From a virus: 64,000 nt of DNA. Of the stretch, positions 17,202-30,086 are shown in pieces. Within the stretch, counting starts at the first letter, position 1. The number at the start of each line of letters is the position of its first letter. The stretch is from positions 128,001 to 192,000 of IMG/VR virus record IMGVR_UViG_3300045988_151351; one strand, written 5' to 3'. Below the pieces are notes generated by a model that saw nothing but the letters and a program-made list of their open reading frames with translations, ran no database searches and was not told where the DNA came from. The translations under genes and the position numbers were made by a program.

Positions 17202-17269
17202 ATTAGGGCTTGACAAACCGCAATCTTCATGCTATAATTAAGACACAAAGAACAAAGGAGATAACAACA

Positions 17270-17766: not shown

Positions 17767-17776
17767 TAAAATACCA

Positions 17777-17815
17777 ATTCAGCGGAATGAACAAATTCCG
17801 CTGAATTTTTTTATT
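17777..17815 (+). terminator. rho-independent terminator (CAGCGGAATgaacaaATTCCGCTG + T-run)
   Basis: Hairpin plus T7. Confidence 0.75.
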
Positions 17816-17849
17816 TATTTTGTCTATTGACAAATCCAATAGAATGTGA

Positions 17850-18044
17850 TAAAATGGGCGCGCCGGCCACAATCGCCACTGGCCGGCATTTTATTATAAC
17901 ATACCGCCAGCCAATTTGTCAAGGGGAAAATCGCACAAATATTACACAAAAAATTCTCCCGAAATTTGTGCGTTTTGCCAATAGACAAACAGAATAGCAT
18001 AGTGTATAATAAAGATACAAAGTTAAGGAACGAGGTAATTCACA
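17850..18044 (+). promoter_or_regulatory. composite regulatory element E2: GC hairpin GCCGGCC..GGCCGGC, conserved box CATTTTATTATAACATACCGCCAGCCAATTTGTCAAGGGG, then promoter TAGACA-N16-TGTATAAT
   Basis: Conserved with E3 and E7. Confidence 0.5.
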
Positions 18045-18212
18045 ATGACTATGAACGCACTTGCTGAGAAATTGTCCGCATGGCTCGACCGCTATGGCTG
18101 GGATGATGAAAGCCTGAATAATTTTGCCAACATCCATGCGACTTCCTACGAAGAATACAATGCGATTTGGGAAGTTTTGGAAGAACTGAAAAAAATGCGT
18201 GATGGGGATTGA
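18045..18212 (+). CDS. early micro-protein, 55 aa
   Basis: Conserved RBS. Confidence 0.4.
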   Translation: MTMNALAEKLSAWLDRYGWDDESLNNFANIHATSYEEYNAIWEVLEELKKMRDGD

Positions 18213-18269
18213 CAAAGTCCCCATTCCATGCTATAATAAATATACAAATTAAGAAAGGAATTGAATACA

Positions 18270-18488
18270 ATGGATTTCAAGAAAATGAGCGCAGGTGCAG
18301 CATTCGGCAAAATTCTTTACACAGTTGGCAAGTGGTTCGCAACTGCCGCTTTGATCTGGTGGGGCTGGAACATTTTTGCCTGGCACTTTGATCTGCCGCA
18401 GTTCGAGTACATGGAAATCTTTGCCATGCGTATGGCTCTGACCTGTATCATGAAAATTTTCTGGCAGAGAACTGACAAAGGGGATTGA
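18270..18488 (+). CDS. early small membrane protein, about 72 aa
   Basis: Promoter at 18210-18245. Trp-rich TM. Confidence 0.45.
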   Translation: MDFKKMSAGAAFGKILYTVGKWFATAALIWWGWNIFAWHFDLPQFEYMEIFAMRMALTCIMKIFWQRTDKGD

Positions 18489-18545
18489 CAAACAATCCCC
18501 CATGTGCTATAATAAATTCAGAAATTAAGAAAGGAATTGATAATA

Positions 18546-19007
18546 ATGAAAGCAACAGGAATTATCCGCAGAATTGATGAATTGGGGCGCGTAGTTATCC
18601 CCAAGGAAATCCGCCGCACTATCCGAATCCGCGAAGGTGACCCGCTGGAGATTTTCGTTGAAGGTGGCGCAGTCATTTTCAAGAAATACCAGACAATGGG
18701 AAATCTTGAAACTCAGTGTAATGTGCTTTGTGACACATTCCAAAAAATGTCCAGTGCGTGCGCAGTCTTTGATACTGATGGTGAATTGTTCGCGTCAAAT
18801 TCACAGTTCCGCTTTGCCTTTGCCGCCAACATGCCCAAGTTGCCGAAAGATTTAATTGGTTGCCGTGAAATTCTTGAACGCAATCACATGATTTTCATGC
18901 CAATTATCGCTGATGGGGAAATACTGGGAACTCTGGCAGTTGAAACCGATAACCGCGAAATGGTTCAATTTGCGGCAAGAAATTTGGCTGAACAGTCGAA
19001 AAATTAA
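18546..19007 (+). CDS. SpoVT/AbrB-family regulator, about 153 aa: AbrB-N domain plus a C-terminal GAF-like domain
   Basis: RRIDELGRVVIPKEIRRTIRIREGD is the AbrB-N signature. Length and architecture resemble SpoVT. Own promoter at 18484-18520. Confidence 0.6.
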   Translation: MKATGIIRRIDELGRVVIPKEIRRTIRIREGDPLEIFVEGGAVIFKKYQTMGNLETQCNVLCDTFQKMSSACAVFDTDGELFASNSQFRFAFAANMPKLPKDLIGCREILERNHMIFMPIIADGEILGTLAVETDNREMVQFAARNLAEQSKN

Positions 19008-19069
19008 GTCTTGACAAACCAGCCGGTCTATGATACAATAATGATACAAAAGAAAGCGAGGTACTTACA

Positions 19070-19228
19070 ATGAAAATGGTTATCTTCACTCTGGTAATTG
19101 CTATCCTTGTCATTGACTGGCTGGTTGCTATTTTGGAATTTGCTACCGGTCACAAGAAAAGCATTGTTGATGTTATCATCCGTTCATTCCTTCTTTTTGC
19201 CGTGCCTTTTATCGTCCAGTGGTTCTAA
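19070..19228 (+). CDS. early micro-membrane protein, 52 aa
   Basis: Promoter at 19010-19045; hydrophobic. Confidence 0.4.
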   Translation: MKMVIFTLVIAILVIDWLVAILEFATGHKKSIVDVIIRSFLLFAVPFIVQWF

Positions 19229-19374
19229 CTACTGGGCGATAAAATTCACTATTGACAAAATAATAAAAATGTGATATAATAATTATACAATAAAAAAAGG
19301 AATTGATAACATGAATTTTCTATTCAATTTGCCTATTGACATTTTTGATTGCGTATGCTATAATTAAATGATAA

Positions 19375-19568
19375 GAAAATTGCAGCCGCCCGCCGACGTT
19401 TGCCAGCCCCGGTATTTCCATTATAACACCGGCCAGCCATTTTGTCAAGCGAAAAATTGAACAAAAATGAAAAAATATTTGATCCCGAATTTGTGTATTC
19501 TACCAATAGACAAAAAGAAAAACAGGGTGTATAATAAGGGTACAAAGTTAAGGAATGAGGTACTTGAA
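19375..19568 (+). promoter_or_regulatory. composite regulatory element E3 (GC-rich segment, box CCATTATAACACCGGCCAGCCATTTTGTCAAGCG, promoter TAGACA..TGTATAAT)
   Basis: Conserved with E2 and E7. Confidence 0.5.
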
Positions 19569-19748
19569 ATGAGTAAGCGTGAAATGGTCCGCATGATTAA
19601 CGACCGCACTGGTGAAATCGTTGACAAGTTTTTTGATGATTCCGCCGATGCTGATGATCTTGAATTTCTTCTGGACATGATGCAAGTCCATTATCAGCGG
19701 TGGAGCGATGGCGAAATTCTTTATGAAGAAAATGATACAAGGGCTTGA
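19569..19748 (+). CDS. early acidic micro-protein, 59 aa
   Basis: RBS AAGGAATGAGG. Confidence 0.4.
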   Translation: MSKREMVRMINDRTGEIVDKFFDDSADADDLEFLLDMMQVHYQRWSDGEILYEENDTRA

Positions 19749-19806
19749 CAAACAAGCCCCCTATGTGATATAATCAATACAGAAATTAAGGAATGAGGTA
19801 ACTACA

Positions 19807-20019
19807 ATGAAGAACTTCACTATTGACGCTTACATCAAACAGCAGTTGATTTTTGCTGAGACTATGCCTACCGATGCCGAACTGTTCGAGCACAACGCTC
19901 TTGGCGCTATCGAGTGGGATGCTTATGTAAATGGCACTAACCCCGAACTTGAGCGCCGTTGGACTGAAAACTACAAACCCGCCTTTGAAAAGATTATTCG
20001 GGGGGTTTTCCATGGATGA
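19807..20019 (+). CDS. early small protein, 70 aa
   Basis: Promoter at 19745-19780. Confidence 0.45.
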   Translation: MKNFTIDAYIKQQLIFAETMPTDAELFEHNALGAIEWDAYVNGTNPELERRWTENYKPAFEKIIRGVFHG

Positions 20020-20212
20020 TCTGAAAAAAGGGACTTGTAAGGATTTTACAGCGTGGGACTTAAACTGTCCCCGCTATGTAAAACCTGACAACAAACTGAG
20101 AAAAAAATTCGTGCGGAAATATCGCAGAAATTCAAAACTGGCTCTTGACAAACAGGTAAAAACGTGCTATAATCAAGATACAAAAACGGAAAGGAATGAA
20201 AACAATGATTAA
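20014..20212 (+). CDS. basic K/R-rich micro-protein, about 66 aa; its coding sequence overlaps the next promoter
   Basis: ATGGATGA overlap with the preceding stop. Confidence 0.25.
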
Positions 20213-20675
20213 AGAAATCGTATTCGACATGGACGGAACTATCGCTGACCTGTATGGCGTTGAGAACTGGCTGGAAATGCTGAGAACATCCGACCCGACC
20301 CCGTATGAAATCGCAGAACCCCTGATTGACATGGCAGAACTTGCCAATCTGCTTTCCCAGTGTCGTGTTATCGGGATTGAAATTTCCGTGGTAACTTGGC
20401 TGAGCAAGGTTTCCACTCCCGACTATGATAAAGCGGTGAGAAAAGCGAAAAAAGAATGGCTGAACAACCATGATTTTCCTTTTGACCATTTCCACGGAGT
20501 CAAGTATGGAACACCGAAACATCAGGTAGTCAAGCAGGAACTTCCAAAAGATGGAACAGCACTGATTTTCGATGATGACGCGCGAGTGCGGAACGCTTGG
20601 ACGCTTGGCGAAGCAATCGACCCCACAAAAGAAAATATCATTGAAATCCTGCGGAATATTTTGGAAGCGCGCTAA
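20205..20675 (+). CDS. HAD-superfamily 5'(3')-deoxyribonucleotidase-like hydrolase, about 156 aa
   Basis: Motif I FDMDGTIADL (DxDGT). Size and layout match the phage NT5C-type nucleotidase family. Confidence 0.55.
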   Translation: MIKEIVFDMDGTIADLYGVENWLEMLRTSDPTPYEIAEPLIDMAELANLLSQCRVIGIEISVVTWLSKVSTPDYDKAVRKAKKEWLNNHDFPFDHFHGVKYGTPKHQVVKQELPKDGTALIFDDDARVRNAWTLGEAIDPTKENIIEILRNILEAR

Positions 20676-20788
20676 GCGCTTCCAAAGAAAGGAAATAATA
20701 AAATGAATGACGAACAGCTTGACATTTTGCTTGAAGAAGCAACAGACATTAAAATTTTGATTGCCTTGGGCTGAAAGGATGGGTAAAA

Positions 20789-21079
20789 ATGGAAACAAAG
20801 TTTATTTGGGTAGTTAATTTTGGCGATAATGATTTTGATGATTTGAATTGCGCATTTGACAATTTCAAAACTGCAAAAGAAGCAGTACAGACAATTTTTG
20901 GCAAGGTTTCCGCAGTAAACCCTGCTTGGCAGAATTTTAAGCTGGAAGATGAAGACACTGAAAATGAATGGGCAGTCTATGCATTTGACTATGTTGATGA
21001 AGACGCCCACCTTTTGGTAAATCCTCACATTGACATTGTCGTAGCTCCAATACCTTACAATTCTCTTCCTATTGATTGA
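20789..21079 (+). CDS. early small protein, 96 aa
   Basis: Intact ORF followed by a terminator. Confidence 0.45.
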   Translation: METKFIWVVNFGDNDFDDLNCAFDNFKTAKEAVQTIFGKVSAVNPAWQNFKLEDEDTENEWAVYAFDYVDEDAHLLVNPHIDIVVAPIPYNSLPID

Positions 21080-21120
21080 AAATTTTGGGAATCCAGATTT
21101 TGGATTCCCAATTTTTTTTC
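21079..21120 (+). terminator. rho-independent terminator (GGGAATCCAGATTTTGGATTCCC + T8)
   Basis: Perfect hairpin plus T-run. Confidence 0.8.
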
Positions 21121-21139
21121 GATTCATTTTTTGGAAATA

Positions 21140-21595
21140 GTTGTAAAATGACAGCCGCGCGGTCACGATTGTGTGGCCGCGCCATTTTGTCAAGAGGGAA
21201 TACTCACTAATTTTTTGAGCGGATTTTTGTGCATCTTGCCAATAGACAGAAATCCTGAAATGTGGTATACTCTATAATGTCAAGGGGAGAGAATGAAAAA
21301 AACTTTATCTCCCTCGTGGGAGATTAGGTGTCAGTCAGTCCCACCCACTCGAAAAAAAATGTAAAAAACCCCTTGACAAACCCCACGGAATGTGGTACAA
21401 TAAAGACGTCAAGAGGGAACAGCGATTAAAAAGTGCTTGGTATCATTAGCCGGGCTACACAACTTCCGCGGTTCGTGTGTAAAAAAAATAAAATTCCCTC
21501 TTGACAAACAGCTCCTGATGTGTTATAATCAATACAGAAATTAAGGATAGGGGAAACGATGGTAAGCCCCATCCAAAAGAAAGGAATTACCAAAA
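21140..21595 (+). promoter_or_regulatory. composite element E4 plus a cluster of three tandem promoters, each followed by a short hairpin transcript whose 3' arm overlaps the next -35
   Basis: Promoters at about 21247-21275, 21372-21400 and 21483-21512. Hairpins GTCAAGGGGAG../..CCCCTTGAC and CAAGAGGGAA../..TTCCCTCTTG. Confidence 0.5.
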
Positions 21596-22252
21596 ATGCC
21601 CAAAAATATCTACTGTACGCTGGACACTGAGACAGTCGGTGGCAGTTCTAACCCGACCGGAATGTATAACGCGGGTGCTGTCATTCACGACAAGGATGGT
21701 AACATTTTGGCAACAACTTCCATCCTTATCATGGAACATTATGACAGCATCAACAAAGACGATTATGCTAAGAAGCATTTTCCGATCTATGAAGCTCGTT
21801 TGACAAGTGGCACAATTTCCGCGGTAGCTACCGAAGCCGAAGCTGTATCCATCGTGCGCAACCTCTGTCGGTTCTATGGTGTAAAGTATGTTATGGCATA
21901 CAATAGCTGTTTCGATTTCATTAAGACACCTTTTGCCGCGCTTCTAGATGAATTTGAGTTTATCGACCTTTATTTGATGGCTTTACAGACCATCACGCAC
22001 CAGAAAGGCTTTGACAAATTCTGCCATGAAAATAATTTCGTTGCGCGAAGTGGCAGGTCTTGCGCGACGGGTGTTGAAGCGGTCTATGCCTACATCACCA
22101 GAAACCCCGACTTTGAAGAAGAACACACCGCACTTTCTGACGCACTGAATGAAATGGCAATTTTTGTTAAGTGCTATTCGCTCCATAAGCGCTTTACCAA
22201 AAACTGCCACCAGTGGAATTGCCACGAAAATAAAATGTTCCCCAAGTGGTAA
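21596..22252 (+). CDS. DEDDh 3'-5' exonuclease (DnaQ/RNase T-like), 218 aa
   Basis: Exo I CTLDTETVG, Exo II YNSCFDF and Exo III HTALSDALNEMAIF motifs. Confidence 0.6.
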   Translation: MPKNIYCTLDTETVGGSSNPTGMYNAGAVIHDKDGNILATTSILIMEHYDSINKDDYAKKHFPIYEARLTSGTISAVATEAEAVSIVRNLCRFYGVKYVMAYNSCFDFIKTPFAALLDEFEFIDLYLMALQTITHQKGFDKFCHENNFVARSGRSCATGVEAVYAYITRNPDFEEEHTALSDALNEMAIFVKCYSLHKRFTKNCHQWNCHENKMFPKW

Positions 22253-22320
22253 AAACCACTTGACAAACCCAATCAAATGTGATATAATCAATACAGAAAT
22301 TAAGAAAGGAATTGAATACC

Positions 22321-22824
22321 ATGACTAGAATTAACTTTACCGATGCCGCTAACCTCGCCGAAGCTGTTTGCCGCGTGAAGGAACTCTTTGGCACTAACCC
22401 CTTTACTTCCAAGGAATACAACACTAACCGCCCCAAGGGTATGGCACTGCTCAGCACTCTTGAAAATCATCACATTGTCACCATCGTCAAGACTGAGACT
22501 TTTGAAAAAGAAGTTAATTCTTGCTATGGCGCGGAATACGTTCTGAATGCTAACAATGAAAGTATCATGAAGCTGGACGATTTCAAGGCTCTGCCGCAGT
22601 CTGTTCAGGAAATGATTACCAAGGCGGCAGGTGGGATCCACATCGAACACCGCGACGTGGAAACAATTACCTGTAAGCGGTATTATTACCAGTTCAATCC
22701 GGAAGCCTATGAAAAGTATCTGAGCAACCGCGTGACTGAGTGGAAAATTGCCCTCTGTAAGAAACAGGAAAAGCTGGAACAGCTTTCCAAGGAAATCGCG
22801 GCTCTGAAAAAAATTGTCGGCTGA
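22321..22824 (+). CDS. early protein with C-terminal coiled coil, about 167 aa
   Basis: Promoter at 22258-22295. Confidence 0.45.
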   Translation: MTRINFTDAANLAEAVCRVKELFGTNPFTSKEYNTNRPKGMALLSTLENHHIVTIVKTETFEKEVNSCYGAEYVLNANNESIMKLDDFKALPQSVQEMITKAAGGIHIEHRDVETITCKRYYYQFNPEAYEKYLSNRVTEWKIALCKKQEKLEQLSKEIAALKKIVG

Positions 22825-22834
22825 GAAAATTAGT

Positions 22835-23008
22835 GCTTGACAATCGCCGCAAAGTGTGATACAATGTAAGTGTTCCAAGGGGAGATGAACTTCTCCCCAA
22901 GGACACGAAAAAAAATTCAAATTAGGTATTGACAAGTCGAAAGATTTGTGATACAATATATTCATCAAGTGAAGGACACACTTAAAAAACCAGAAAGGAA
23001 TTGATACT
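22835..23008 (+). promoter_or_regulatory. tandem promoter pair with an intervening perfect hairpin CCAAGGGGAGATGAACTTCTCCCCAAGG, and a leader shared with the paralogous cassette at 27960-28059
   Basis: TTGACAATCG..TGTGATACAAT and TTGACAAGTCG..TGTGATACAAT. Leader GTGAAGGACACACTTAAAAAACCAGAAAGGAATTGATACTATG is identical at both cassettes. Confidence 0.55.
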
Positions 23009-23371
23009 ATGGCTACTAAGATGACTAAGAAGGATTGCTTCACCGCTCTGCTCCAGATGGACGAAGTCCAGTCCAACCAGACTCTCGTGGATTTCATCAA
23101 CCACGAACTCGAACTGCTGGCGAAGAAGAACAGCGCCGAAAAGAAGCCGACCGCGACCCAGCTCGCCAATGATGGCTTCAAGTCCGCGATTCTCGCTCAC
23201 ATGAGCATGACCCCTGACCAGCTTTTTACCATCACGGAACTGATTAAGTCTGTGCCGGAGATTGCCGACCTGACCAACCAGCGTGTCAGCGCGATTGTCG
23301 GTCAGATGGTAAAGGCTGGAAGCCTTGTCCGTGTTGACGACAAGAGAAAGGCTTTCTTCAAGGTGGCGTGA
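23009..23371 (+). CDS. family-X protein, 120 aa; paralog of 28060..28440 and 44401..44808
   Basis: Shared blocks include HELELL.KKN....KKPTATQ.ANDGFK and LFTITELIK.VPEIADLTNQRVSAIV.QMV..G.L.RV. Confidence 0.5.
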   Translation: MATKMTKKDCFTALLQMDEVQSNQTLVDFINHELELLAKKNSAEKKPTATQLANDGFKSAILAHMSMTPDQLFTITELIKSVPEIADLTNQRVSAIVGQMVKAGSLVRVDDKRKAFFKVA

Positions 23372-23414
23372 CCGGATGGGGGCTTTTGCCCCCACTTCCG
23401 AAAGGAGGTAAAAA

Positions 23415-23774
23415 ATGACAGTCGAAGAACTCGCCCAGCGGTTGAACATTTCAGTCGATGAAGCGCGACAAGTCCAAGAGGATGACAAACGCATTGACCA
23501 CGGTGAAAAGTTATTTGAATTGCCGCCGGAGCTTGAAGCAGGAGCGAAAAAAGCAAGACAGACCGGAACGCGCAAGGTCACAGAGGTTAAACGAGAGCGC
23601 AAACCCGACGAGGACAAGCGCGAACTCATCCAGTATTTGGAAGGCAAGCTCGAAGATGCCCACCATTACGACATGGATTTGGATAACATTACCATTACCA
23701 ATCCAGAGCGAGAAATGGAATTTACTTACAATGGAAAAAAGTACCGGCTGACGTTGGCTTGCCCCAGAAAATGA
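23415..23774 (+). CDS. family-Y protein, 119 aa; paralog of 28493..28897
   Basis: Shared D.GEK..F.L.PE.E...KK....GTRKV and C-terminal Y.LTL...RK. Confidence 0.45.
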   Translation: MTVEELAQRLNISVDEARQVQEDDKRIDHGEKLFELPPELEAGAKKARQTGTRKVTEVKRERKPDEDKRELIQYLEGKLEDAHHYDMDLDNITITNPEREMEFTYNGKKYRLTLACPRK

Positions 23775-23780
23775 CAAAAG

Positions 23781-23818
23781 TTCCTCCCAGAAAATGGGAG
23801 GAACTTTTTTACCCAAAT
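23781..23818 (+). terminator. rho-independent terminator (TTCCTCCCAGAAAATGGGAGGAA + T-run)
   Basis: Hairpin plus T6. Confidence 0.75.
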
Positions 23819-23824
23819 TATTTG

Positions 23825-23991
23825 GAAATAGATGGAAATTCGGCCGCGCGACCACAATCCAGTGGGCGCGTCATTTTTGTCAAGAATAACATTCAACAAA
23901 TTTTCTGCACATTTTTTGTGTATTCTGACTGTTGACTTTTCTCCCGAAAAGCTTTATACTATTGGTACAAGGCTAAGGGAGGAAACACCTA
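23825..23991 (+). promoter_or_regulatory. composite regulatory element E5 (GC hairpin, TTTTTGTCAAGAAT box, promoter TTGACTTTTCTCCCGAAAAGCTTTATACT)
   Basis: Same architecture as E1 to E7. Confidence 0.45.
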
Positions 23992-24165
23992 ATGAATATT
24001 GAAGTAAATACCGAGCATCTAACTGAGTGCATTGAAAGTTGGGTCGAGACATTTGATGATTGTGCTTGTTGTCCTCTGATGTTCGACTGCCAAGAGGATG
24101 AAGATATCCGAGGCATTGACTGTATTGAATGCAGTGAAAAAATTATTGATTGGTTAAAGGCTTGA
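23992..24165 (+). CDS. Cys-rich micro-protein, 57 aa (CACC..C..C..C)
   Basis: RBS GGGAGGAAAC. Confidence 0.4.
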   Translation: MNIEVNTEHLTECIESWVETFDDCACCPLMFDCQEDEDIRGIDCIECSEKIIDWLKA

Positions 24166-24219
24166 CAAGATAACCCTATTGTGATACAATAGGATTATCA
24201 AAAGAAAGGAATTGATACA

Positions 24220-24354
24220 ATGGATTTAGCTATTATTATTTTAGGTGCTCTCTATCTCTGCGGGGTTAAAGTTGGCACAGCACTTGCAATCTGTGCTATT
24301 ATTGAAGGTCTTTTCATTATTATCAGTGCAATTATCAGAAAATTAAATGAATAA
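24220..24354 (+). CDS. micro-membrane protein, 44 aa
   Basis: Promoter at 24160-24197; hydrophobic. Confidence 0.4.
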   Translation: MDLAIIILGALYLCGVKVGTALAICAIIEGLFIIISAIIRKLNE

Positions 24355-24416
24355 GGGCTTGACAAACAAGCCCTATTGTGCTATAATTGATTTATCAAAG
24401 GAAAGGAATTGATACC

Positions 24417-24749
24417 ATGAATAAAAAAAATAATGAGAATTTAAAAAGAGTATTAAATCTCTTGGACGACCTTATTTCTGATGAAGTAGAAGAACGAACC
24501 GCAGAACTTGAAAAGGAAGTTTCTCATTTTAAATGTTCAAGTGCCCGATATAGGGATATAATTAAATTCCTTGTTAGAGAATCTAAACTTGATATTCCTG
24601 CTAAAACTGCCGAAGCCTTGGAAGAATTTAAGAATGCAAAAGAGTGTGATAGTAGAAATGGTTATTCTACTTATACAAGCTATACCAATCGAAAAGGTTA
24701 TGTTTATGAACAATATGAAATGATTAAAAAAATTTGTAATAGGGCTTGA
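24417..24749 (+). CDS. early small protein, about 110 aa
   Basis: Promoter at 24358-24395. Confidence 0.45.
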   Translation: MNKKNNENLKRVLNLLDDLISDEVEERTAELEKEVSHFKCSSARYRDIIKFLVRESKLDIPAKTAEALEEFKNAKECDSRNGYSTYTSYTNRKGYVYEQYEMIKKICNRA

Positions 24750-24802
24750 CAAACAAGCCCTATTGTGCTATAATAAAGACACAAAGAGAGGAGATGTAAT
24801 AA

Positions 24803-25009
24803 ATGAAACACAATAAATGGTTTGTGGCTTGTCTTGGTTGTCTGATGGTTAGCGTAGTTCTCGGCGGTTTGGGAATGATGTTGGGCGTTCTTGCCTGTGT
24901 GGCTTGTGCGGGCGGATGTTTCGTTAAGTGGCTTTTCGAAGAAGATAAATACCAGCGCGCAGAACACCAAAAATATTTGGAAAGTTTGAAAAAAGGGCTT
25001 GACAAATAA
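24803..25009 (+). CDS. small membrane protein, 68 aa
   Basis: Promoter at 24746-24783. Confidence 0.45.
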   Translation: MKHNKWFVACLGCLMVSVVLGGLGMMLGVLACVACAGGCFVKWLFEEDKYQRAEHQKYLESLKKGLDK

Positions 25010-25059
25010 CTACTTTGATGTTATAATAAAGATACAATAAAGGAAAGGAATTGATACCA

Positions 25060-25239
25060 TGAAACATTTCCATTGTCCGGTAAATGGTTGGGATTGCCCC
25101 TATTTCAAAAATGAAACGATAATCAATGGTCAGAAAGAAACCTGCATTTGTAGTCTGGAAAATCCGATGGATGACTGCGATGATTTTTACAGCATGTGGG
25201 GTGATTGCGAACCTGATGATTATACAGATGATAATTAAG
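25060..25239 (+). CDS. Cys-rich acidic micro-protein, 59 aa
   Basis: Promoter at 24996-25033. Confidence 0.4.
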
Positions 25240-25271
25240 GGGAAATTTCCCCTAGGAAAGGAATTGATACC

Positions 25272-25559
25272 ATGTTAGATAAAAATACGGAAGAAATGCT
25301 GAAAGGCATGACGGACAGTGAAATCGCTACATTGATTGGTCTTGCTTATAGAGAAAAGCAAAACAGAGATGAAGCAAAAAAAACAAAATACATGAACGCA
25401 ATTAACAAGGCTATTCAGGATTATCTGGATAATGTTGGAGATTTAACATTCCATGTTGAGTATGAAGATGAAGATGGTCAGGACGCGGAAACTGACATCA
25501 CCGTAGATAATACAAATCCGCCTGCTGGTGGTAATGGAGTTATTTATATTAAGGAGTGA
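25272..25559 (+). CDS. early small protein, 95 aa
   Basis: RBS only, no own promoter; co-transcribed. Confidence 0.45.
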   Translation: MLDKNTEEMLKGMTDSEIATLIGLAYREKQNRDEAKKTKYMNAINKAIQDYLDNVGDLTFHVEYEDEDGQDAETDITVDNTNPPAGGNGVIYIKE

Positions 25560-25636
25560 AAAAATAGCACAAGGGGCTTGACAAAGTAAGCCTCTTGTGC
25601 TATAATTGATTTATCAAAAGAAAGGAATTGATAAAA

Positions 25637-25876
25637 ATGACTCTCGGTATGATTAAAAATGTAATCGGCATTGTAAAAGGTTCGTTAATGTTTTATGATG
25701 GAAATGGTGTTGAAGTAATAAATGAAAATACCTGTGGTCGCTATCTCAAAGATCGCAAAGGCCGCATGACCTTGAATGGAGACCTTCTGGACACAAGTGA
25801 AGAATGGATGCTGGGATTACCTGTAACTGGTTTGAAAGCCAAAAATAATACCCTTATCATTTACGTTGATGGCTGA
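25637..25876 (+). CDS. early small protein, about 79 aa
   Basis: Promoter at 25576-25613. Followed by terminator 25877-25912. Confidence 0.45.
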   Translation: MTLGMIKNVIGIVKGSLMFYDGNGVEVINENTCGRYLKDRKGRMTLNGDLLDTSEEWMLGLPVTGLKAKNNTLIIYVDG

Positions 25877-25912
25877 AAATAAAATCCAGAGGGCTATGCT
25901 CTCTGGATTTTT
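25877..25912 (+). terminator. rho-independent terminator (AAATCCAGAG..CTCTGGATTTTTT)
   Basis: Hairpin plus T-run. Confidence 0.75.
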
Positions 25913-25914
25913 TA

Positions 25915-26088
25915 AAATCTATTAATTTTTCAGTCTCGCGCCCACGGTCCAAGCGCGAGGATTTTTAGATTTTAAACACATTACACAATTTTTTCGGGCA
26001 AAATTTGTGTAAAATAACAGTTGACATTTTTCCCGATACCTGTTATACTATAATTGTTCCAAGAGAGAACCAGTAAGGAGAATGAACA
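25915..26088 (+). promoter_or_regulatory. composite regulatory element E6 (hairpin CTCGCGC..GCGCGAG, promoter TTGACATTTTTCCCGATACCTGTTATACT)
   Basis: Same architecture. Confidence 0.45.
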
Positions 26089-26304
26089 ATGAAAAGATAT
26101 AGAATTACAGATGATGTTGTCGCTGATTTGTTGAACTTCTATTGCGAGGGTAAGCCTGCCGTTTGGAATTGGTTTTTTGGATGGCGCGGCGGACATTGGG
26201 ATACAAAAGGGAATCTAGTTTATTGCGATTACATTGTTTCTGATAAAATTCTGAATCAAGCAATCACATTAGCAAAAAGATTTTCCGATCGGCTTGACAA
26301 ATAA
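26089..26304 (+). CDS. early small protein, 71 aa
   Basis: RBS AAGGAGAATG. Confidence 0.45.
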   Translation: MKRYRITDDVVADLLNFYCEGKPAVWNWFFGWRGGHWDTKGNLVYCDYIVSDKILNQAITLAKRFSDRLDK

Positions 26305-26354
26305 ATAAAAATATGTTATAATAATTATACAAATTAAGAAAGGAATTGATAACA

Positions 26355-26540
26355 ATGACAATGTATAAACGGGAAGTAAAATATAAGTGGCTTTGGTGGA
26401 ATGGACGTGGTAGTTATGTTCTTTCTGATGAAACTGAATGGATGAGTGAAGAAGAAGCAAAAGAAAAGAACATCAAAACCTATGATACTGGTTTACAATG
26501 TTGTAGAGAATATGAAAGATTTATTCCGATAGAAAATTAA
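26355..26540 (+). CDS. early small protein, about 61 aa
   Basis: Promoter at 26293-26330. Confidence 0.4.
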   Translation: MTMYKREVKYKWLWWNGRGSYVLSDETEWMSEEEAKEKNIKTYDTGLQCCREYERFIPIEN

Positions 26541-26559
26541 AAAGAAAGGAATTGATACC

Positions 26560-26970
26560 ATGACTGAAATTAAGACCTATAAATGTGATTTCTGCGGGCA
26601 GGTGTTCGACGATGAAGCAGAGTGTATTCGTCATGAATGGAAATGCAGATATGAGGATCTGCGTAGAACAGAAAATTGCGAACCGCTGAAGCTGTTCGAC
26701 CTTGAAGACAAGGAAATTGAGGGATTTAATTATCCTAAATGTGATGAAATTGGTGCGATGGAAATTCATTCCTACGCTTGGGCACAATTCATCAATGATT
26801 ATTTTGATGAAATGGGTTATGAAGTTCCCATTAGAATCGTAGACGGAGAGGTTGAACGCTATGGTCTGTGGTATTATGACCCTGAATATCGCTATGGCGA
26901 GTGGCGATCTTATGAAGAAGTGCTTGAAGATATTCAGAAAATTGGAAAGAAATTTAATCAAGGGGCTTGA
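26560..26970 (+). CDS. early protein with an N-terminal C2H2/zinc-ribbon-like motif, 136 aa
   Basis: CDFCGQVFDDEAECIRHEWKC. Confidence 0.45.
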   Translation: MTEIKTYKCDFCGQVFDDEAECIRHEWKCRYEDLRRTENCEPLKLFDLEDKEIEGFNYPKCDEIGAMEIHSYAWAQFINDYFDEMGYEVPIRIVDGEVERYGLWYYDPEYRYGEWRSYEEVLEDIQKIGKKFNQGA

Positions 26971-27024
26971 CAAGCCCCTTGACCTGTGATATAATTGATT
27001 TATCAAAAGAAAGGAATTGATACA

Positions 27025-27300
27025 ATGAATAAACAGGTTATTTTCATGGACAACGAGGGAACTGTTCAGGCAGGCATCTGGAATCAGGACAGGGATGAAA
27101 TTATTTGCGGTTGTTGTGGCGCAACAATCGAATCGGGCGATTTTGTTCTGCTTCACATTTATGACGAATGGCTGAATATCACCGATGAAATCTGCGGAGA
27201 TGATGGAGATATTCTTCATGAGATTGAAGAAAAGGTTGACCGTCTGACCACTTCTGAAATTGAAGCTATTCTTGATGGAAAGAAGGAATTTAACGTATGA
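27025..27300 (+). CDS. early small protein, about 91 aa, with CGCCG..C..C
   Basis: Promoter at 26967-27005. Confidence 0.4.
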   Translation: MNKQVIFMDNEGTVQAGIWNQDRDEIICGCCGATIESGDFVLLHIYDEWLNITDEICGDDGDILHEIEEKVDRLTTSEIEAILDGKKEFNV

Positions 27301-27605
27301 AATTTCTTATTAAGGTTATCGCTAAGTGGTTCAAAGACAGAAATTGCGCGTTTGCTATTTATGGCGCGGATGGCTCATGCATTGAAAGTGCAAATACTGT
27401 ACCGGAAAAGAATTTTTTCCCACCGAAGACAAATCAAATACGGAAAAATGGTGATGATTGGTATTCATTTCCAATCAATGCCAACGGTGAATATTGCGGT
27501 TGTGTCTGCTGGCTTGAAGATACCAGCGAAGAAGCATGGATAGAATTTTACGATGTAATTAACATCTGCCAAATTCTGGAAACCGCGTGCGAAGTTGAGG
27601 AATAA
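27297..27605 (+). CDS. early small protein, 102 aa
   Basis: ATGA overlap with the preceding gene. Terminator at 27590-27625. Confidence 0.45.
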   Translation: MKFLIKVIAKWFKDRNCAFAIYGADGSCIESANTVPEKNFFPPKTNQIRKNGDDWYSFPINANGEYCGCVCWLEDTSEEAWIEFYDVINICQILETACEVEE

Positions 27606-27639
27606 ATTTCCTCAACTTTTTTCGCCTTTTTAATTGGGA

Positions 27640-28059
27640 ATTTTTGGGCGCGGCGCCCACGTATGTAAGGCGCCGAATTTCCATTATACCACCCCGCCAG
27701 CAATTTGTCAAGAGAAAAGTTATACAAAATAATCTTTTTATTTTATCCCGTTTTCGTCATTTTGCCAATAGACTTTTCAAGGGGTATCTGCTATAATACA
27801 TAATGTCAGGAGGGAATGGAGAGTTCCCAAGCGGTTAAAAAAACTTTTGGGAATTGAAAATTTCCTCTTGACAAAGCCCACACGATGTGGTATAATAAGG
27901 GTGTCAATGAGGGGCGGCTAAGTCCTGCAGGCTGAAAAAGATTTTAGAATTTTTGGGAAAAAATTCGCCAAACCTCTTGACAAGCCCCACAAAGTGTGGT
28001 ATAATCTAAATGTAATTAAGTGAAGGACACACTTAAAAAACCAGAAAGGAATTGATACT
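27640..28059 (+). promoter_or_regulatory. composite element E7 plus a triple tandem promoter-hairpin cluster, paralogous to 21140-21595 and 22835-23008
   Basis: Box CCATTATACCACCCCGCCAGCAATTTGTCAAGAG. Promoters at about 27775-27805, 27880-27910 and 27975-28005. Confidence 0.5.
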
Positions 28060-28440
28060 ATGGCTAAGACTACTTCCAAGCTGACCAAGCGCGACTACTT
28101 CAACATTCTCCGTGAAGCGTATCCGCAGACCGCGGACAACTATGACGCAGTTATCGGTTTCATCGACCATGAGCTGGAACTGCTTTCCAAGAAGAACGCG
28201 GCTGACAAGAAGCCGACTGCCACGCAGGTGGCGAACGACGGTTTCAAGACCTCGATTAAGGCGGTGATGTCCGCAGAACCGACCCGTCTGTTCACTATCA
28301 CGGAACTGATTAAGACTGTTCCGGAGATTGCCGACCTGACTAACCAGCGTGTTTCTGCTATCGTCCGGCAGATGGTAACTGATGGCACGCTCGACCGCGT
28401 TGAGGAAAAGCGGAAAGCCTATTTCCGCATTCACCAGTAA
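28060..28440 (+). CDS. family-X protein, 126 aa; paralog of 23009..23371
   Basis: See 23009. Confidence 0.5.
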   Translation: MAKTTSKLTKRDYFNILREAYPQTADNYDAVIGFIDHELELLSKKNAADKKPTATQVANDGFKTSIKAVMSAEPTRLFTITELIKTVPEIADLTNQRVSAIVRQMVTDGTLDRVEEKRKAYFRIHQ

Positions 28441-28492
28441 TTGCCAATCGGGGCGGAGCAATCCGCCCCACCCAGAAGAAAGGTGGAATTAA

Positions 28493-28897
28493 ATGGCATT
28501 AAAGGAAAAAGACAAGCAAGCGTGGATTGACAAAAATATGAAACTCATGGGCTGGACGCAGGAAGAAGCGGAAAGTGTGTGGGAAGCCGACCGCGCTATC
28601 GACAAAGGCGAACGTGTTGATTTTGACTTGTCACCAGAACAGGAAAAAGAAGCCAAAAAATATATGAACGCGGGAACGCGCAAAGTGCCGACAAATTACA
28701 AATTTGACCAGCGCAAGCGTAAAGAAAACCCGACCAAAGCCGGAATTATCGCAGAATTAGCAACTTTTTTGGCTGAAAACAGCGAAAATGCGTGCGAAAA
28801 CGTGGAAATTACAAACAAAGAGCGCATGATTGCGTTCAAAGTTGGTGAAAATTGCTACGAATTGACGCTCACGCAGAAAAGAAAGCCAAAAAGTTAA
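28493..28897 (+). CDS. family-Y protein, 134 aa; paralog of 23415..23774
   Basis: See 23415. Confidence 0.45.
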   Translation: MALKEKDKQAWIDKNMKLMGWTQEEAESVWEADRAIDKGERVDFDLSPEQEKEAKKYMNAGTRKVPTNYKFDQRKRKENPTKAGIIAELATFLAENSENACENVEITNKERMIAFKVGENCYELTLTQKRKPKS

Positions 28898-28928
28898 GAA
28901 AAAGGGCGAGAAATCGCCCTTTTTCTAA
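28898..28928 (+). terminator. rho-independent terminator (AAAAAGGGCGAGAAATCGCCCTTTTT)
   Basis: Hairpin plus T-run. Confidence 0.75.
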
Positions 28929-29035
28929 GCAAAAACTGCGGAAAAGTTAGGCTTGACAACGACTTTTTTGTATGGTATAATGTCTATACAGTTAAGGGAG
29001 CGGACAACCCAACCAACCGCAGAAAGGTAAAGCGT

Positions 29036-29683
29036 ATGTTTGAATATTTCTCCAAGGAAATCGACCAGATCGAAAGCGAAGATTTGCGAATGTTCGTTAA
29101 GTTCTATCTTGACGAAAAAGTTCCGTCCTATTTCTGGAAAATCGGCGCTTCAAGTTCTGGAAAATTTCATCCTGTTTTTTCTCAGGGTGAAGGCGGTCTA
29201 GTTCGTCATACCAAAGCCGTTTGTGCGTTCTGTGAAGAACTTTTGAGAATGTCTCAATGGGCTTACATGAAAGACGAATACAAAGACCTCGCGCGTGTCG
29301 CTTGTATTTGCCACGATACCGCAAAATACGGTTTAGCAGATTTTGACAAGGGAGAATATCCCAACCATGCCGCGAATGCCGCAAAATTGGTAGATTCTGC
29401 TTGGCGCGAATACTTTGATGAACCTGCTCCGTTTTTGCTCACGCAAGCCATTAAGTCCCACATGGGGCAATGGAGCACCGACCGCGAAGACAGACCTTTT
29501 ACAAATATTGACAGGCTTGTCCATCTTGCGGATTACATCGCTTCCAGAAACTTCATCGACATTCCTGAAATTACCAGCGACTACAATTCCACATTTTCTA
29601 ACGAAGATGACGCCGAACCGGAAGATATTGACAGCGATGAAGGCTTCGACCCTTACTCCGGCTGTTTCACCTATGACTGTTAA
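29036..29683 (+). CDS. HD-domain metal-dependent phosphohydrolase, 215 aa
   Basis: H..H...CHDTAKYG...HLADYIAS (HD motif). Promoter at 28953-28990. Confidence 0.55.
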   Translation: MFEYFSKEIDQIESEDLRMFVKFYLDEKVPSYFWKIGASSSGKFHPVFSQGEGGLVRHTKAVCAFCEELLRMSQWAYMKDEYKDLARVACICHDTAKYGLADFDKGEYPNHAANAAKLVDSAWREYFDEPAPFLLTQAIKSHMGQWSTDREDRPFTNIDRLVHLADYIASRNFIDIPEITSDYNSTFSNEDDAEPEDIDSDEGFDPYSGCFTYDC

Positions 29684-29715
29684 AAAAGAGGGCATTAGCC
29701 CTCTTTTTTTTGTTC
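29683..29715 (+). terminator. rho-independent terminator (AAAAAAGAGGGCATTAGCCCTCTTTTTTTT)
   Basis: Hairpin plus T8. Confidence 0.8.
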
Positions 29716-30086
29716 ATTTTGCCTATTGACAAATGCGGCCTGGGGTGGTATAATATCTATAGGGGATAGTTCATCGGGGCGCTGACATAGTCAAGCCCCG
29801 AATTCCCGATCTTTTATCCCATATGGAAAATTTTTGCTCAATCCAGCGGCCTCCATATGCGACCTGGTTCTCCCGAAAGTGATGCCCCCGCAGGGCGCCG
29901 ATCGGTACTATATCATATGCCCGGCATTTGACAATATTAAAAAAATTTGTTATAATATTAAAAAAAAGCATTTTTAAAGCGCGGCCCATTTAGATAATCC
30001 GCCCATTTGACATTTATAAAAAAAAATGATATAATATATTTAGAAAGTGAGAGATCACTTTACTATTAGATAAAGAGGTAACATAT
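29715..30086 (+). promoter_or_regulatory. multi-promoter region marking the transition between the two promoter families: TTGACAAATGCGGCCTGGGGTGGTATAAT, then two AT-rich TTGACA..TATAAT promoters
   Basis: Direct reading. GC-rich structured segment at 29760-29900. Confidence 0.4.

What the first reader, a model, noticed from the sequence alone, without database searches (positions are those of the whole stretch)
20205..29683. Early nucleotide-metabolism trio: HAD deoxynucleotidase, DEDDh exonuclease and HD phosphohydrolase
All three carry clear catalytic motifs and each is driven by strong early promoters. The exonuclease sits behind the triple-promoter cluster. Together they could remodel dNTP or nucleotide-signal pools, degrade host nucleic acid, or destroy nucleotide second messengers of defence systems. 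That last role is speculative.
Basis: partly seen in the sequence, partly recalled or inferred. Interest (0 to 1): 0.55.

Follow-up and report, generated by a model that had tools for sequence, protein, structure and literature searches.

The report
Three early phage 3'-end enzymes
Three intact enzyme genes (a small HAD phosphatase, a DEDDh 3'-5' exonuclease and a YhaM-like HD hydrolase) sit as separate units in a dense array of perfect early promoters in a ~200-kb human-gut phage that recodes TAG. They look more like nucleic-acid end-processing enzymes than nucleotide-pool or signal-destroying enzymes, so this is useful annotation rather than a new kind of system.

Summary
All three ORFs exist at the stated coordinates, keep their full catalytic motifs, and each lies behind consensus sigma-A-type promoters, including the triple cluster before the exonuclease.

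- **No discrete trio.** These are three of about 40 separately transcribed genes in a 14-kb immediate-early array. The window holds 27 exact TTGACA-N14-TGN-TATAAT sites against 0 expected by chance.
- **HAD protein.** It fails the NT5C test. It aligns best with the 3'-phosphatase domain of a phage polynucleotide kinase-phosphatase (hhalign 94%), against 67% over motif I only for SPbeta YorS.
- **Exonuclease.** It is a true DEDDh enzyme by motifs and predicted fold, but belongs to an uncharacterised phage family.

Best reading: early enzymes that heal and degrade nucleic-acid 3' ends. Pool remodelling, a replisome accessory role and signal degradation remain possible. Enzymes are of known kinds; interest is modest.

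The parts
20145..20173 (+). Promoter of the HAD unit (TTGACA-17-TATAAT with TG)
   Evidence: 12/12 match plus extended -10
20205..20675 (+). HAD-superfamily phosphatase, 156 aa (an in-frame ATG at 20196 would give 159 aa)
   Evidence: Invariant DxDxT, T67 and DD126-127. Sub-threshold Pfam hits to Hydrolase and HAD_PNKP. hhalign 94.4% to the Pnkp phosphatase domain against 66.8% over motif I only to NT5C-type YorS. Start supported by RBS spacing and independent gene calls.
20789..21079 (+). 96-aa ORF of unknown function, co-transcribed with the HAD gene
   Evidence: ORF with RBS. No family hit. No promoter between it and the HAD gene.
21085..21182 (+). Two intrinsic-terminator-like hairpins that end the HAD unit (21085-21111 and 21157-21182)
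21243..21529 (+). Three tandem promoters upstream of the exonuclease (21243-21271, 21373-21401, 21501-21529)
   Evidence: 10/12, 11/12 and 12/12 matches. Sequence read directly.
21596..22252 (+). DEDDh 3'-5' exonuclease, 218 aa
   Evidence: Invariant D10, E12, D107, H177, D182. phrog_20187 at 5e-28. PADLOC DEDDh profile at 1.5e-5. AlphaFold model pLDDT 87.9. Foldseek hits to TREX1, REXO2, RNase T, ERI3 and Pop2.
28953..28981 (+). Promoter of the HD gene
   Evidence: 12/12 plus TG
29036..29683 (+). HD-domain metal-dependent hydrolase, 215 aa: YhaM-like catalytic core plus an acidic C-terminal tail (residues ~190-215)
29682..29709 (+). Intrinsic-terminator-like hairpin directly after the HD stop codon, so the HD gene is monocistronic
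   Evidence: 12-bp stem plus T-run
16525..30035 (+). The immediate-early promoter array that contains all three genes
   Evidence: 25 of the 27 exact extended-consensus promoters lie here. Uniform RBS cassette AAGAAAGGAATTGATACC-ATG. GC 0.40-0.455 against 0.27-0.37 in the other low-GC blocks.

Best explanation
The three genes are separately transcribed immediate-early genes of a ~200-kb human-gut siphophage. The phage reads TAG as an amino acid in its late genes and is related to Enterococcus phages EF1/H1 and to phAss-1. Host RNA polymerase would transcribe them on entry from consensus promoters, and they can be translated in the standard code.

Their most likely substrates are the 3' ends of nucleic acids, not free nucleotides.
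- The HAD enzyme resembles a polynucleotide 3'-phosphatase. It would turn blocked 3'-phosphate ends into 3'-OH.
- The DEDDh enzyme degrades from 3'-OH ends.
- The HD enzyme is a second 3'-exonuclease-type catalyst with two metal ions, related to YhaM. In many homologues its variable C-terminal tail copies the SSB tip or a SASP helix, which suggests targeting to DNA or to DNA-bound proteins.

Together they would degrade or trim host (or damaged) DNA or RNA at the start of infection.

Shown here: enzyme class, intact active sites, transcription-unit structure, conservation and synteny. Inferred: substrates, timing and biological target.
For: **Enzyme classes**
- Classes and invariant catalytic residues.
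- HAD is closest to the Pnkp 3'-phosphatase domain. hhalign gives 94.4% over 114 columns; the partner protein was confirmed as AAA_33 plus HAD_PNKP at 2e-46 and lies near an RNA ligase gene. Nineteen of 27 family members touch HAD_PNKP.
- Exonuclease fold matches TREX1, REXO2, RNase T and ERI3 and the DEDDh profile.
- HD: YhaM is the top hit by two methods, and Cas3-HD profiles also hit. YhaM is an Mn-dependent 3'-exonuclease on ssDNA and RNA with an extended two-metal HD motif (PMC12107432). The same H..HD..H..H..D pattern is invariant here.

**Genomic context**
- In sister phages L004-L006 the slot after the second MarR-like pair holds a catalytically intact DEDDh paralogue instead of the HD gene. 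This suggests the two are interchangeable.
- Tails of HD homologues: 50 of 120 end in acidic-LPF, like the Gram-positive SSB tip DDDLPF (PMC5531588). Others end in a SASP C-terminal helix. Both point to DNA.
- HAD and exonuclease recur together in phAss-1, in two gut contigs and in the sister phages. They are among the few array genes conserved between relatives.
- Early expression is inferred from the promoter array and the absence of in-frame TAG.
- In the cultured relative H1, true nucleotide-synthesis genes (thymidylate synthase, DHFR, ribonucleotide reductase) lie in a different module.
Against: - No biochemistry exists for any of the three families.
- HAD misses the HAD_PNKP cut-off (17.5 against 27.6 bits). 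One orthologue nearly reaches NT5C (23.6 against 24.8). No kinase fusion was found among 931 clusters, so a small-molecule phosphatase is not excluded.
- No early endonuclease that would create the ends was identified.
- The HAD gene next to the exonuclease in Enterococcus phage H1 is a different subfamily, HAD-IB.
- The three genes are not an operon.
Confidence: 0.45

Rival explanations
1. Nucleotide-pool remodelling, as the first reader proposed and as in T5. The exonuclease digests host DNA to dNMPs, the HAD enzyme is a (deoxy)nucleotidase that dephosphorylates them, and the HD enzyme is a dNTP or dNMP phosphohydrolase.
For: - Precedent in T5, whose pre-early genes A1 (host DNA degradation) and Dmp (dNMP phosphatase) work this way (bioRxiv 10.64898/2026.04.02.716235).
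- phrog_2643, annotated as a deoxyribonucleotidase, hits the HAD protein at 5e-6.
- An orthologue scores 23.6 bits on NT5C.
- The HAD family is almost always a standalone ~155-aa protein, as small-molecule HADs often are.
- Sister phages carry a nucleoside 2-deoxyribosyltransferase gene in the same array.
Against: - NT5C membership fails.
- The HD protein's closest relatives are nucleases, while SAMHD1 and dGTPases rank far lower.
- tblastn gave no similarity to T5 Dmp or T5 A1.
Confidence: 0.2
2. Replisome or recombination accessories. The DEDDh protein would be the proofreading (epsilon-like) partner of the phage's DnaE-type polymerase. The HD protein would be a replication-fork or flap nuclease that docks through its C-terminal tail.
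For: - This phage group uses a Pol III alpha-type polymerase (PMC10607447). TerL places the window with EF1/H1, E3, phAss-1 and SPbeta-like phages.
- One public source names an exonuclease homologue after Pol III proofreading.
- HD homologues lie beside polymerase and SSB genes in SPO1 and Shanette, and beside helicase-primase genes in c-st and CPD4.
- Many HD homologues carry an SSB-tip-like tail.
Against: - In this phage and its sisters both genes sit in the immediate-early array, not next to replication genes.
- The exonuclease is duplicated in relatives.
- tblastn found it in only 10 phage records and not in the TerL relatives E3, KKP_3916 or SPbeta.
- Epsilon structures were not among the top 50 fold matches.
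- The window's own HD copy lacks the LPF tail.
Confidence: 0.2
3. Counter-defence by destroying nucleotide signals. The HD enzyme, the DEDDh enzyme or both would cleave cyclic or linear oligonucleotide messengers of CBASS or type III CRISPR systems, and the HAD enzyme would remove terminal phosphates.
For: - Immediate-early expression fits anti-defence genes.
- REXO2/Orn-type DEDDh enzymes degrade dinucleotides, and these appear among the fold hits.
Against: - There is no specific similarity to any known anti-signalling enzyme.
- The cyclic-nucleotide phosphodiesterase matches are much weaker than YhaM.
- The PADLOC hits are to generic DEDDh and Cas3-HD nuclease domains.
- Tails copying SSB and SASP point to DNA.
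Confidence: 0.07
4. tRNA 3'-end maturation or repair for the phage's 25-tRNA array: 3'-phosphatase healing plus RNase T-like and YhaM-like trimming.
For: - The window carries 25 tRNA genes.
- RNase T is among the fold hits.
- Pnkp-type phosphatases act in tRNA repair, and the Astolliot Pnkp gene lies near an RNA ligase gene.
Against: - No RNA ligase or kinase is nearby.
- The genes lie 20-30 kb from the tRNA array and are under different (early) control.
- HD homologues occur in phages with no sign of a link to tRNA arrays.
Confidence: 0.05

Closest known systems
T4-type polynucleotide kinase-phosphatase (Pnkp/PseT), 3'-phosphatase domain (Pfam HAD_PNKP)
   Same: DxDxT HAD core with similar spacing and a similar DDxxxVxxxW motif IV. 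hhalign gives 94% probability over 114 columns to the Astolliot Pnkp phosphatase domain.
   Different: It is standalone, with no kinase domain and no fusion in 931 clusters. It scores below the Pfam cut-off. No ligase gene is nearby. It is an immediate-early gene.
Bacillus subtilis YhaM (3'-exonuclease on ssDNA and RNA; PDB 9h3f)
   Different: It has no N-terminal OB domain. It has an extra N-terminal helical segment with an invariant GASSSGK(F/Y)HP loop and a variable acidic tail. There is no detectable sequence similarity. Hexamer formation is unknown.
SPO1 gp32.6 and its homologues in SPO1-like Bacillus phages, Clostridium phages c-st and CPD4 (PHROG 5889)
   Same: True homologues: 33-37% identity and phrog_5889 at 1.5e-42.
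   Different: Those copies lie in replication modules, whereas this one lies in the early promoter array. None has been characterised.
DEDDh exonucleases TREX1, RNase T, Orn/REXO2, ERI and T4 DexA
   Same: Same catalytic pentad and fold. T4 DexA is a precedent for a phage DEDDh exonuclease that helps finish host DNA breakdown; this rests on established knowledge and was not tested here.
   Different: TM-scores are only 0.45-0.58. There is no Pfam hit. It has a distinct Cys/His-rich C-terminus. No sequence similarity to T4 was found by tblastn.
SPO1 host-takeover module and the T5 pre-early (first-step-transfer) region
   Same: Both are clusters of many small genes, each behind strong host-type early promoters, that include enzymes acting on host DNA or nucleotides (T5 A1 and Dmp). 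The SPO1 comparison rests on established knowledge.
   Different: No sequence homology was found. Here the promoters are exact consensus copies with a near-uniform RBS cassette. The array also holds convergent antisense promoters.

Membership tests
HAD superfamily | Motif I DxDx(T/V), motif II S/T, motif III K, motif IV DD or DxxxD | tested here: met
   D11, D13, T67, K71/K85/K108 and D126-D127 are invariant in 27 sequences.
HAD superfamily | Pfam PF00702 gathering score (26.4 bits) | tested here: inconclusive
   The window protein scores 17.8 bits. Twenty-one of 27 homologues hit at E<=0.01, and one relative reaches 27.0 bits.
NT5C 5'(3')-deoxyribonucleotidase (PF06941) | Pfam gathering score (24.8 bits) over the whole domain | tested here: not met
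   13.3 bits on residues 8-22 only. None of 27 members reaches E<=0.01. The best orthologue scores 23.6 bits.
NT5C 5'(3')-deoxyribonucleotidase (PF06941) | Profile alignment to a bona fide phage member (SPbeta YorS) across the domain | tested here: not met
   hhalign gives 66.8% probability over 29 columns, covering motif I only.
NT5C 5'(3')-deoxyribonucleotidase (PF06941) | Helical C1 cap that forms the nucleotide pocket | not testable with these tools
Pnkp 3'-phosphatase domain (PF25109 HAD_PNKP) | Pfam gathering score (27.6 bits) | tested here: not met
   17.5 bits. Nineteen of 27 members hit, best E 2.4e-4.
Pnkp 3'-phosphatase domain (PF25109 HAD_PNKP) | Profile alignment across the phosphatase domain of a verified Pnkp | tested here: met
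   94.4% probability, E 8.8e-8, 114 columns. The target was verified as AAA_33 plus HAD_PNKP at 2e-46.
Pnkp 3'-phosphatase domain (PF25109 HAD_PNKP) | Fusion to, or neighbourhood with, a polynucleotide kinase and an RNA ligase | tested here: not met
   The family is standalone. Fusions are only to homing-endonuclease-type domains. No kinase or ligase lies in the array.
DEDDh (DnaQ-like) 3'-5' exonuclease superfamily | Exo I DxE, Exo II Nx2-3(F/Y)D, Exo III Hx4D | tested here: met
   D10, E12, N103, D107, H177 and D182 are invariant, including in the distant homologues from phAss-1 and Enterococcus phage H1 and in the paralogue.
DEDDh (DnaQ-like) 3'-5' exonuclease superfamily | RNase H-like exonuclease fold | tested here: met
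   Model pLDDT 87.9. 124 PDB hits at E<=1e-3, including TREX1, REXO2, RNase T, ERI3, Pop2 and CRN-4. PADLOC DEDDh profile matched end to end at 1.5e-5.
DEDDh (DnaQ-like) 3'-5' exonuclease superfamily | Match to a curated sequence family (Pfam RNase_T or NCBIfam) | tested here: not met
   No Pfam family at E<=0.1. NCBIfam gives only 15 bits against a cut-off of 247.
Pol III epsilon-type proofreading subunit | Gene linkage with the polymerase gene | tested here: not met
   No polymerase gene within +/-6-10 kb in H1, phAss-1, L004-L006 or L011. The gene lies in the early array opposite the packaging genes.
Pol III epsilon-type proofreading subunit | Physical binding to the polymerase PHP domain or to the clamp | not testable with these tools
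   No complex prediction is available.
HD-domain superfamily (PF01966) | Pfam gathering score (22 bits) and the H..HD..D metal ligands | tested here: met
   32.0 bits. H58, H93-D94 and D166 are invariant, as are H111, H142 and H163.
YhaM 3'-exonuclease family | HD catalytic domain of YhaM type | tested here: met
YhaM 3'-exonuclease family | N-terminal OB-fold nucleic-acid-binding domain | tested here: not met
   The protein is 215 aa and all-helical from residue 2. No OB domain appears in Pfam.
YhaM 3'-exonuclease family | NCBIfam PRK13480 cut-off (460 bits) | tested here: not met
   The window protein has no hit. SPO1 gp32.6 scores only 15.8 bits.
T5 Dmp-type dNMP phosphatase | Detectable homology to T5 Dmp | tested here: not met
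   tblastn of the HAD and HD proteins against 50,697 phage records returned no T5-like phage.

The most novel reading that the evidence does not exclude
The HD protein may be a new class of immediate-early phage nuclease: a YhaM-like catalytic core that has lost its OB domain and is aimed at host DNA transactions by swappable C-terminal peptides that copy host proteins. The tail types seen are an SSB-tip-like ...DDLPF, an alpha/beta-SASP helix, PLDLFED, PELPWEEE, and GFDPYxGC(F/Y)T(Y/F)DC in this window. It appears functionally interchangeable with a DEDDh paralogue in the same genomic slot. With the Pnkp-like 3'-phosphatase it could form a host-chromosome or replication-fork attack kit typical of TAG-recoded and related gut Firmicute phages.
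Probability: 0.12. Interest if true: 0.6.

Novelty: new member of a known kind. Interest (0 to 1): 0.3.

Why it matters
These three families are abundant in human-gut phage metagenomes (619, 7,232 and 1,966 database clusters respectively), yet none has been characterised. They are among the few conserved genes in an otherwise hypervariable early region of large Firmicute phages, including phages that recode TAG. Knowing whether they attack host DNA or RNA, adjust nucleotide pools or serve the replisome would explain the first minutes of infection in this widespread group. The cultured Enterococcus relatives H1 and EF1 make the exonuclease question experimentally tractable. If the tail mimicry is real, it would be a neat case of a phage nuclease using host docking peptides. 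As it stands, this is refined annotation, not a new mechanism.

Tried and rejected
**Searches that found nothing useful**
- Megablast of 20-30 kb against 50,697 phage records: no match.
- Single-sequence and profile searches of PDB sequences for all three proteins: only noise or a weak RNase H hit.
- Foldseek against afdb50: the library was unavailable.
- Literature search for a characterised phage HAD, exonuclease or HD early anti-defence set: nothing specific.

**Leads that did not hold**
- Rosetta-stone search for HAD fusions among 931 representative clusters: the partners were only T5orf172 or HNH homing-endonuclease-type domains or unknown sequence, with no kinase.
- A conserved HAD-exonuclease pair reaching Enterococcus phages was rejected as orthology. 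H1_102 is a HAD-IB enzyme, and the window HAD protein does not hit the Enterococcus phages.
- The odd C-terminus of the window HD protein is not a frameshift. It is a genuine alternative tail shared with P0277.
- A second exonuclease copy, a nucleoside deoxyribosyltransferase and an H1-type HAD are all absent from the window.
- PADLOC hits (DEDDh, Cas3-HD) were read as evidence of domain type only, not as membership of a defence system.
- Other array ORFs were scanned for enzymes. Only a SleB-like cell-wall hydrolase, AbrB/SpoVT-like proteins and MarR-like proteins were recognised.

Full report

The finding's coordinates run from the start of one ORF to the stop of another.

| Gene | Coordinates (+) | Length |
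|---|---|---|
| HAD | 20196/20205-20675 | 159 or 156 aa |
| Exonuclease | 21596-22252 | 218 aa |
| HD | 29036-29683 | 215 aa |

All three were found. The HAD start at 20205 is the better one. It has the same AAAGGA-9 nt-ATG spacing as most genes in the region. Gene callers on three independent metagenome contigs also gave a 156-aa product. All three genes end in TAA and contain no in-frame TAG.

Alignments with metagenomic homologues show that the catalytic residues never vary:
- HAD: D11-x-D13, T67 and D126-D127.
- Exonuclease: D10/E12, N103/D107 and H177/D182, the classical DEDDh set. These hold even in the 25-33% identical homologues from phAss-1 and Enterococcus phage H1, and in a paralogue.
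- HD: H58, H93-D94, H111, H142 and H163/D166.

The promoters are as described:
- HAD: a 12/12 site with an extended -10 at 20145-20173.
- Exonuclease: three tandem sites at 21243 (10/12), 21373 (11/12) and 21501 (12/12).
- HD: a 12/12 site at 28953-28981.

The exact 29-nt pattern TTGACA-N14-TGN-TATAAT occurs 27 times in the window against 0 in 100 shuffles.

**2. What surrounds the genes?**

The promoters are not special to these genes. Twenty-five of the 27 exact sites lie between 16.5 and 30.0 kb. There, roughly 40 mostly tiny plus-strand ORFs each have their own promoter and a near-identical leader and RBS, AAGAAAGGAATTGATACC-ATG.

The transcription units are as follows:
- HAD is co-transcribed with a 96-aa ORF, and two terminator-like hairpins follow.
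- The exonuclease runs straight into the next promoter.
- The HD gene is monocistronic, with its own terminator at 29682-29709.

About 20 unrelated ORFs lie between the HAD and HD genes. The array has a higher GC content (0.40-0.455) than most of the rest of the window, which is largely 0.27-0.37.

To its left, on the other strand, lies a late block of terminase, portal and related genes. This block becomes a set of long contiguous ORFs only if TAG is read as sense. The window also carries 25 tRNA genes, including a suppressor with anticodon CTA.

The source and relatives are clear:
- The exact exonuclease protein occurs on ~201-kb human-gut contigs.
- TerL places the phage with Enterococcus phages H1, EF1 and VRE9 (52% identity), Geobacillus E3, phAss-1 (44%) and, more distantly, SPbeta-like phages.
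- phAss-1 is the type of a 'code 15 clade' of gut phages thought to infect Clostridia (PMC10607447).
- Enterococcus phage H1 has the same layout: late genes on one strand and a divergent array of small genes holding the exonuclease on the other.
- Dense arrays of the same exact promoter occur in phAss-1 (13 in 15 kb) and in sister gut contigs (16-24 in 20 kb).

So the three genes belong to a conserved immediate-early array, readable in the standard code by host machinery.

**3. What is each enzyme?**

*HAD.* Pfam gives only sub-threshold hits to the generic Hydrolase family and to HAD_PNKP. NT5C matches motif I alone at 13 bits. Across 27 family members, 21 touch Hydrolase, 19 touch HAD_PNKP and none touches NT5C.

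The only annotated phage hit outside the clade is the C-terminal half of a Pseudomonas phage polynucleotide kinase. I verified that protein as AAA_33 kinase plus HAD_PNKP at 2e-46, lying near an RNA ligase gene.

| hhalign target | Probability | Columns aligned |
|---|---|---|
| Pnkp phosphatase domain (Astolliot) | 94.4% (E 9e-8) | 114 |
| NT5C-type YorS (SPbeta) | 66.8% | 29 |

The family is large, with 7,232 clusters at 90% identity and 931 at 50%. It is almost always a standalone ~155-aa protein, and the rare fusions are uninformative. One orthologue nearly reaches the NT5C cut-off. The substrate class therefore stays open, but 'NT5C deoxynucleotidase' is not supported, and the nearest relative acts on polynucleotide 3' ends.

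*Exonuclease.* It has no Pfam hit but a clear PHROG family of unknown function (5e-28) and an end-to-end match to a DEDDh profile. The AlphaFold model (pLDDT 87.9) hits DEDD exonucleases in the PDB: TREX1, REXO2/Orn, RNase T, ERI3, Pop2 and CRN-4, at TM 0.45-0.58. It is a genuine but divergent DEDDh enzyme. tblastn finds it in only 10 phage records: the Enterococcus EF1/H1/VRE9 group, phAss-1 and two gut contigs. It is often present in two copies.

*HD.* Pfam HD is above threshold and phrog_5889 scores 1.5e-42. The model (pLDDT 87.7) has one outstanding structural neighbour, the catalytic domain of B. subtilis YhaM:

| Method | YhaM (9h3f) | Next best hit |
|---|---|---|
| Foldseek | E 3.3e-4, TM 0.59 | E 0.035 |

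YhaM is an Mn-dependent 3'-exonuclease on ssDNA and RNA with an extended two-metal HD motif (PMC12107432). The invariant H..HD..H..H..D pattern here fits that type. Cas3-HD nuclease profiles also hit at 3.9e-6. The protein lacks YhaM's OB domain and is not a YhaM family member.

**4. Context in relatives**

- The HD family's homologues in cultured phages all lie in replication modules:
  - SPO1 gp32.6 lies between the DNA polymerase gene and the exonuclease and ligase genes.
  - The Shanette copy lies right after an SSB gene.
  - The c-st copy lies before the YorF, ATPase, helicase and primase genes.
  - The CPD4 copy lies before thymidine kinase and primase-helicase genes.
- In the sister gut phage L011 the order HAD - AbrB - x - exonuclease - MarR-like pairs - HD is the same as in the window.
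- In another sister lineage (L004-L006) the slot after the second MarR-like pair holds a second, catalytically intact DEDDh exonuclease where the HD gene would be. I read this as a hint that the two are functionally interchangeable.
- Of ~39 array ORFs, only the HAD gene, the exonuclease, the HD gene, the AbrB-like and MarR-like regulators and two or three others have detectable homologues in the relatives.
- The HD core carries variable C-terminal tails (numbered (i)-(iv)).
  - (i) Fifty of 120 homologues end in acidic-LPF. That is the tip of Gram-positive SSB, DDDLPF, which mediates partner binding (PMC5531588). In S. mutans it can also act as a ClpXP degron (PMC5143411).
  - (ii) Some end in the C-terminal DNA-binding helix of alpha/beta-type SASP.
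  - (iii) The window copy has a different tail, shared with P0277, and it is not a frameshift.
  - (iv) These tails point to DNA or DNA-bound proteins as the place of action.
- In the cultured relative H1, bona fide nucleotide-synthesis genes form a separate module.

**5. Most likely mechanism**

I favour a set of immediate-early enzymes that work on nucleic-acid 3' ends (confidence about 0.45).
- The Pnkp-like phosphatase would unblock 3'-phosphate ends.
- The DEDDh exonuclease would degrade from 3'-OH ends.
- The YhaM-like HD enzyme would be a second 3'-directed nuclease, aimed by its tail.
- The target would be host or damaged DNA or RNA during takeover.

Enzyme class, active-site integrity, transcription units and synteny are shown. 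Substrates, timing and targets are inferred.

The rivals are not mutually exclusive:
- Replisome accessories (0.2). The exonuclease would be an epsilon-like proofreader for the group's DnaE-type polymerase, and the HD enzyme a fork nuclease.
- Destruction of signalling nucleotides (0.07).
- tRNA end processing (0.05).

**6. Comparison with known systems, and novelty**

The array works like the SPO1 host-takeover module or the T5 pre-early region, but shares no sequence with either. Each enzyme belongs to a known superfamily. None meets the curated threshold of a characterised family (NT5C, HAD_PNKP, RNase_T or epsilon, YhaM).

I rate it a new member of a known kind. Interest is 0.3: solid annotation of abundant but unstudied gut-phage genes, with two testable hints (the HD-for-DEDDh swap and the SSB/SASP-like tails), but no surprising mechanism demonstrated.

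Noticed in passing
window 599-12997 (-), 58653-58727 (+), 48611-58727: The phage recodes TAG. The minus-strand late block (terminase, portal and related genes) becomes contiguous long ORFs only if TAG is sense. A suppressor tRNA with anticodon CTA sits in an array of 25 tRNA genes. The closest named relative, phAss-1, is classified in the 'Caudoviricetes code 15 clade'. The early array avoids in-frame TAG.
   Followed up: partly
window 16525-30035 (+): There are 25 exact copies of the extended consensus promoter TTGACA-N14-TGN-TATAAT (27 in the window, 0 expected). Most are followed by a near-identical leader and RBS, AAGAAAGGAATTGATACC-ATG. The same arrays occur in phAss-1 and in sister gut contigs (13-24 per 15-20 kb).
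   Followed up: yes
window 17893-17922 (-), 19420-19448 (-), 27683-27711 (-); also L001, L004-L006, L011: Perfect consensus promoters on the opposite strand lie inside the array. Each is followed by a conserved ~45-nt GC-rich hairpin element (GAAATTC-GGCCCGC...GCGGGCCGCC-CAATTT). In two of the three window cases they face a plus-strand promoter 60-90 nt away. They may produce small sense/antisense RNAs or act as a transcription-interference switch. No Rfam family matches.
   Followed up: partly
window 22837-23774 and 27868-28897 (+): A duplicated two-gene cassette: a MarR-like winged-helix protein (120 and 126 aa) plus a 119/134-aa partner. Each cassette lies behind two tandem promoters. Relatives carry three copies. 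The upstream promoter of each tandem pair, and those before the exonuclease, start with a GTCAAG(A/G)GG-like box, which could be an operator.
   Followed up: partly
window 14590-15168, 15540-15680, 18546-19007 (+): The early region encodes a SleB-like cell-wall hydrolase (Pfam Hydrolase_2) and two AbrB/SpoVT-type proteins, one with a possible GAF-like C-terminal half as in SpoVT. Some HD homologues also carry SASP-like tails. Together this hints at a spore-forming host and possible interference with sporulation or germination.
   Followed up: no
HD homologues P0241-P0360; window 29600-29683: The conserved HD core carries swappable C-terminal tails. The types are acidic-LPF (50 of 120, like the SSB tip DDDLPF), an alpha/beta-SASP C-terminal helix (for example P0312), PLDLFED, PELPWEEE, and GFDPYxGC(F/Y)T(Y/F)DC in the window copy and in P0277.
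   Followed up: partly
L004-L006 at about 15.0-15.7 kb and 17.7-18.9 kb: Sister phages carry a nucleoside 2-deoxyribosyltransferase-family gene in the same early array. They also have a second DEDDh exonuclease paralogue in the slot that holds the HD gene in the window. The window has neither.
   Followed up: yes
window 1-64000: GC content steps sharply from 0.27-0.37 in most late and tRNA regions to 0.40-0.455 in the early array (16-24 and 28-30 kb). This fits early genes tuned to host codon usage, before the phage tRNAs are made.
   Followed up: no
window 55754-55866 (+): A RAGATH-33 RNA (Rfam RF03102, 137.9 bits, above the gathering score) lies within the tRNA array.
   Followed up: no
window 50465-50536 (+): ARAGORN reports a tRNA with a four-base anticodon (GTAG) and an undetermined amino acid. 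It could be a misprediction or an unusual decoder. Rfam's tRNA model does not report it at gathering score.
   Followed up: no
window 48898-49542, 54790-55668 (+): GIY-YIG-type homing-endonuclease genes are interspersed among the tRNA genes. The first needs TAG read-through to be full length.
   Followed up: no
window 35934-36665 (+): A calcineurin-like metallophosphoesterase (Pfam Metallophos, phrog_547) lies outside the early array. Enterococcus phage H1 also has such a gene inside its tRNA array. It belongs to the same broad class as T5 A1.
   Followed up: no
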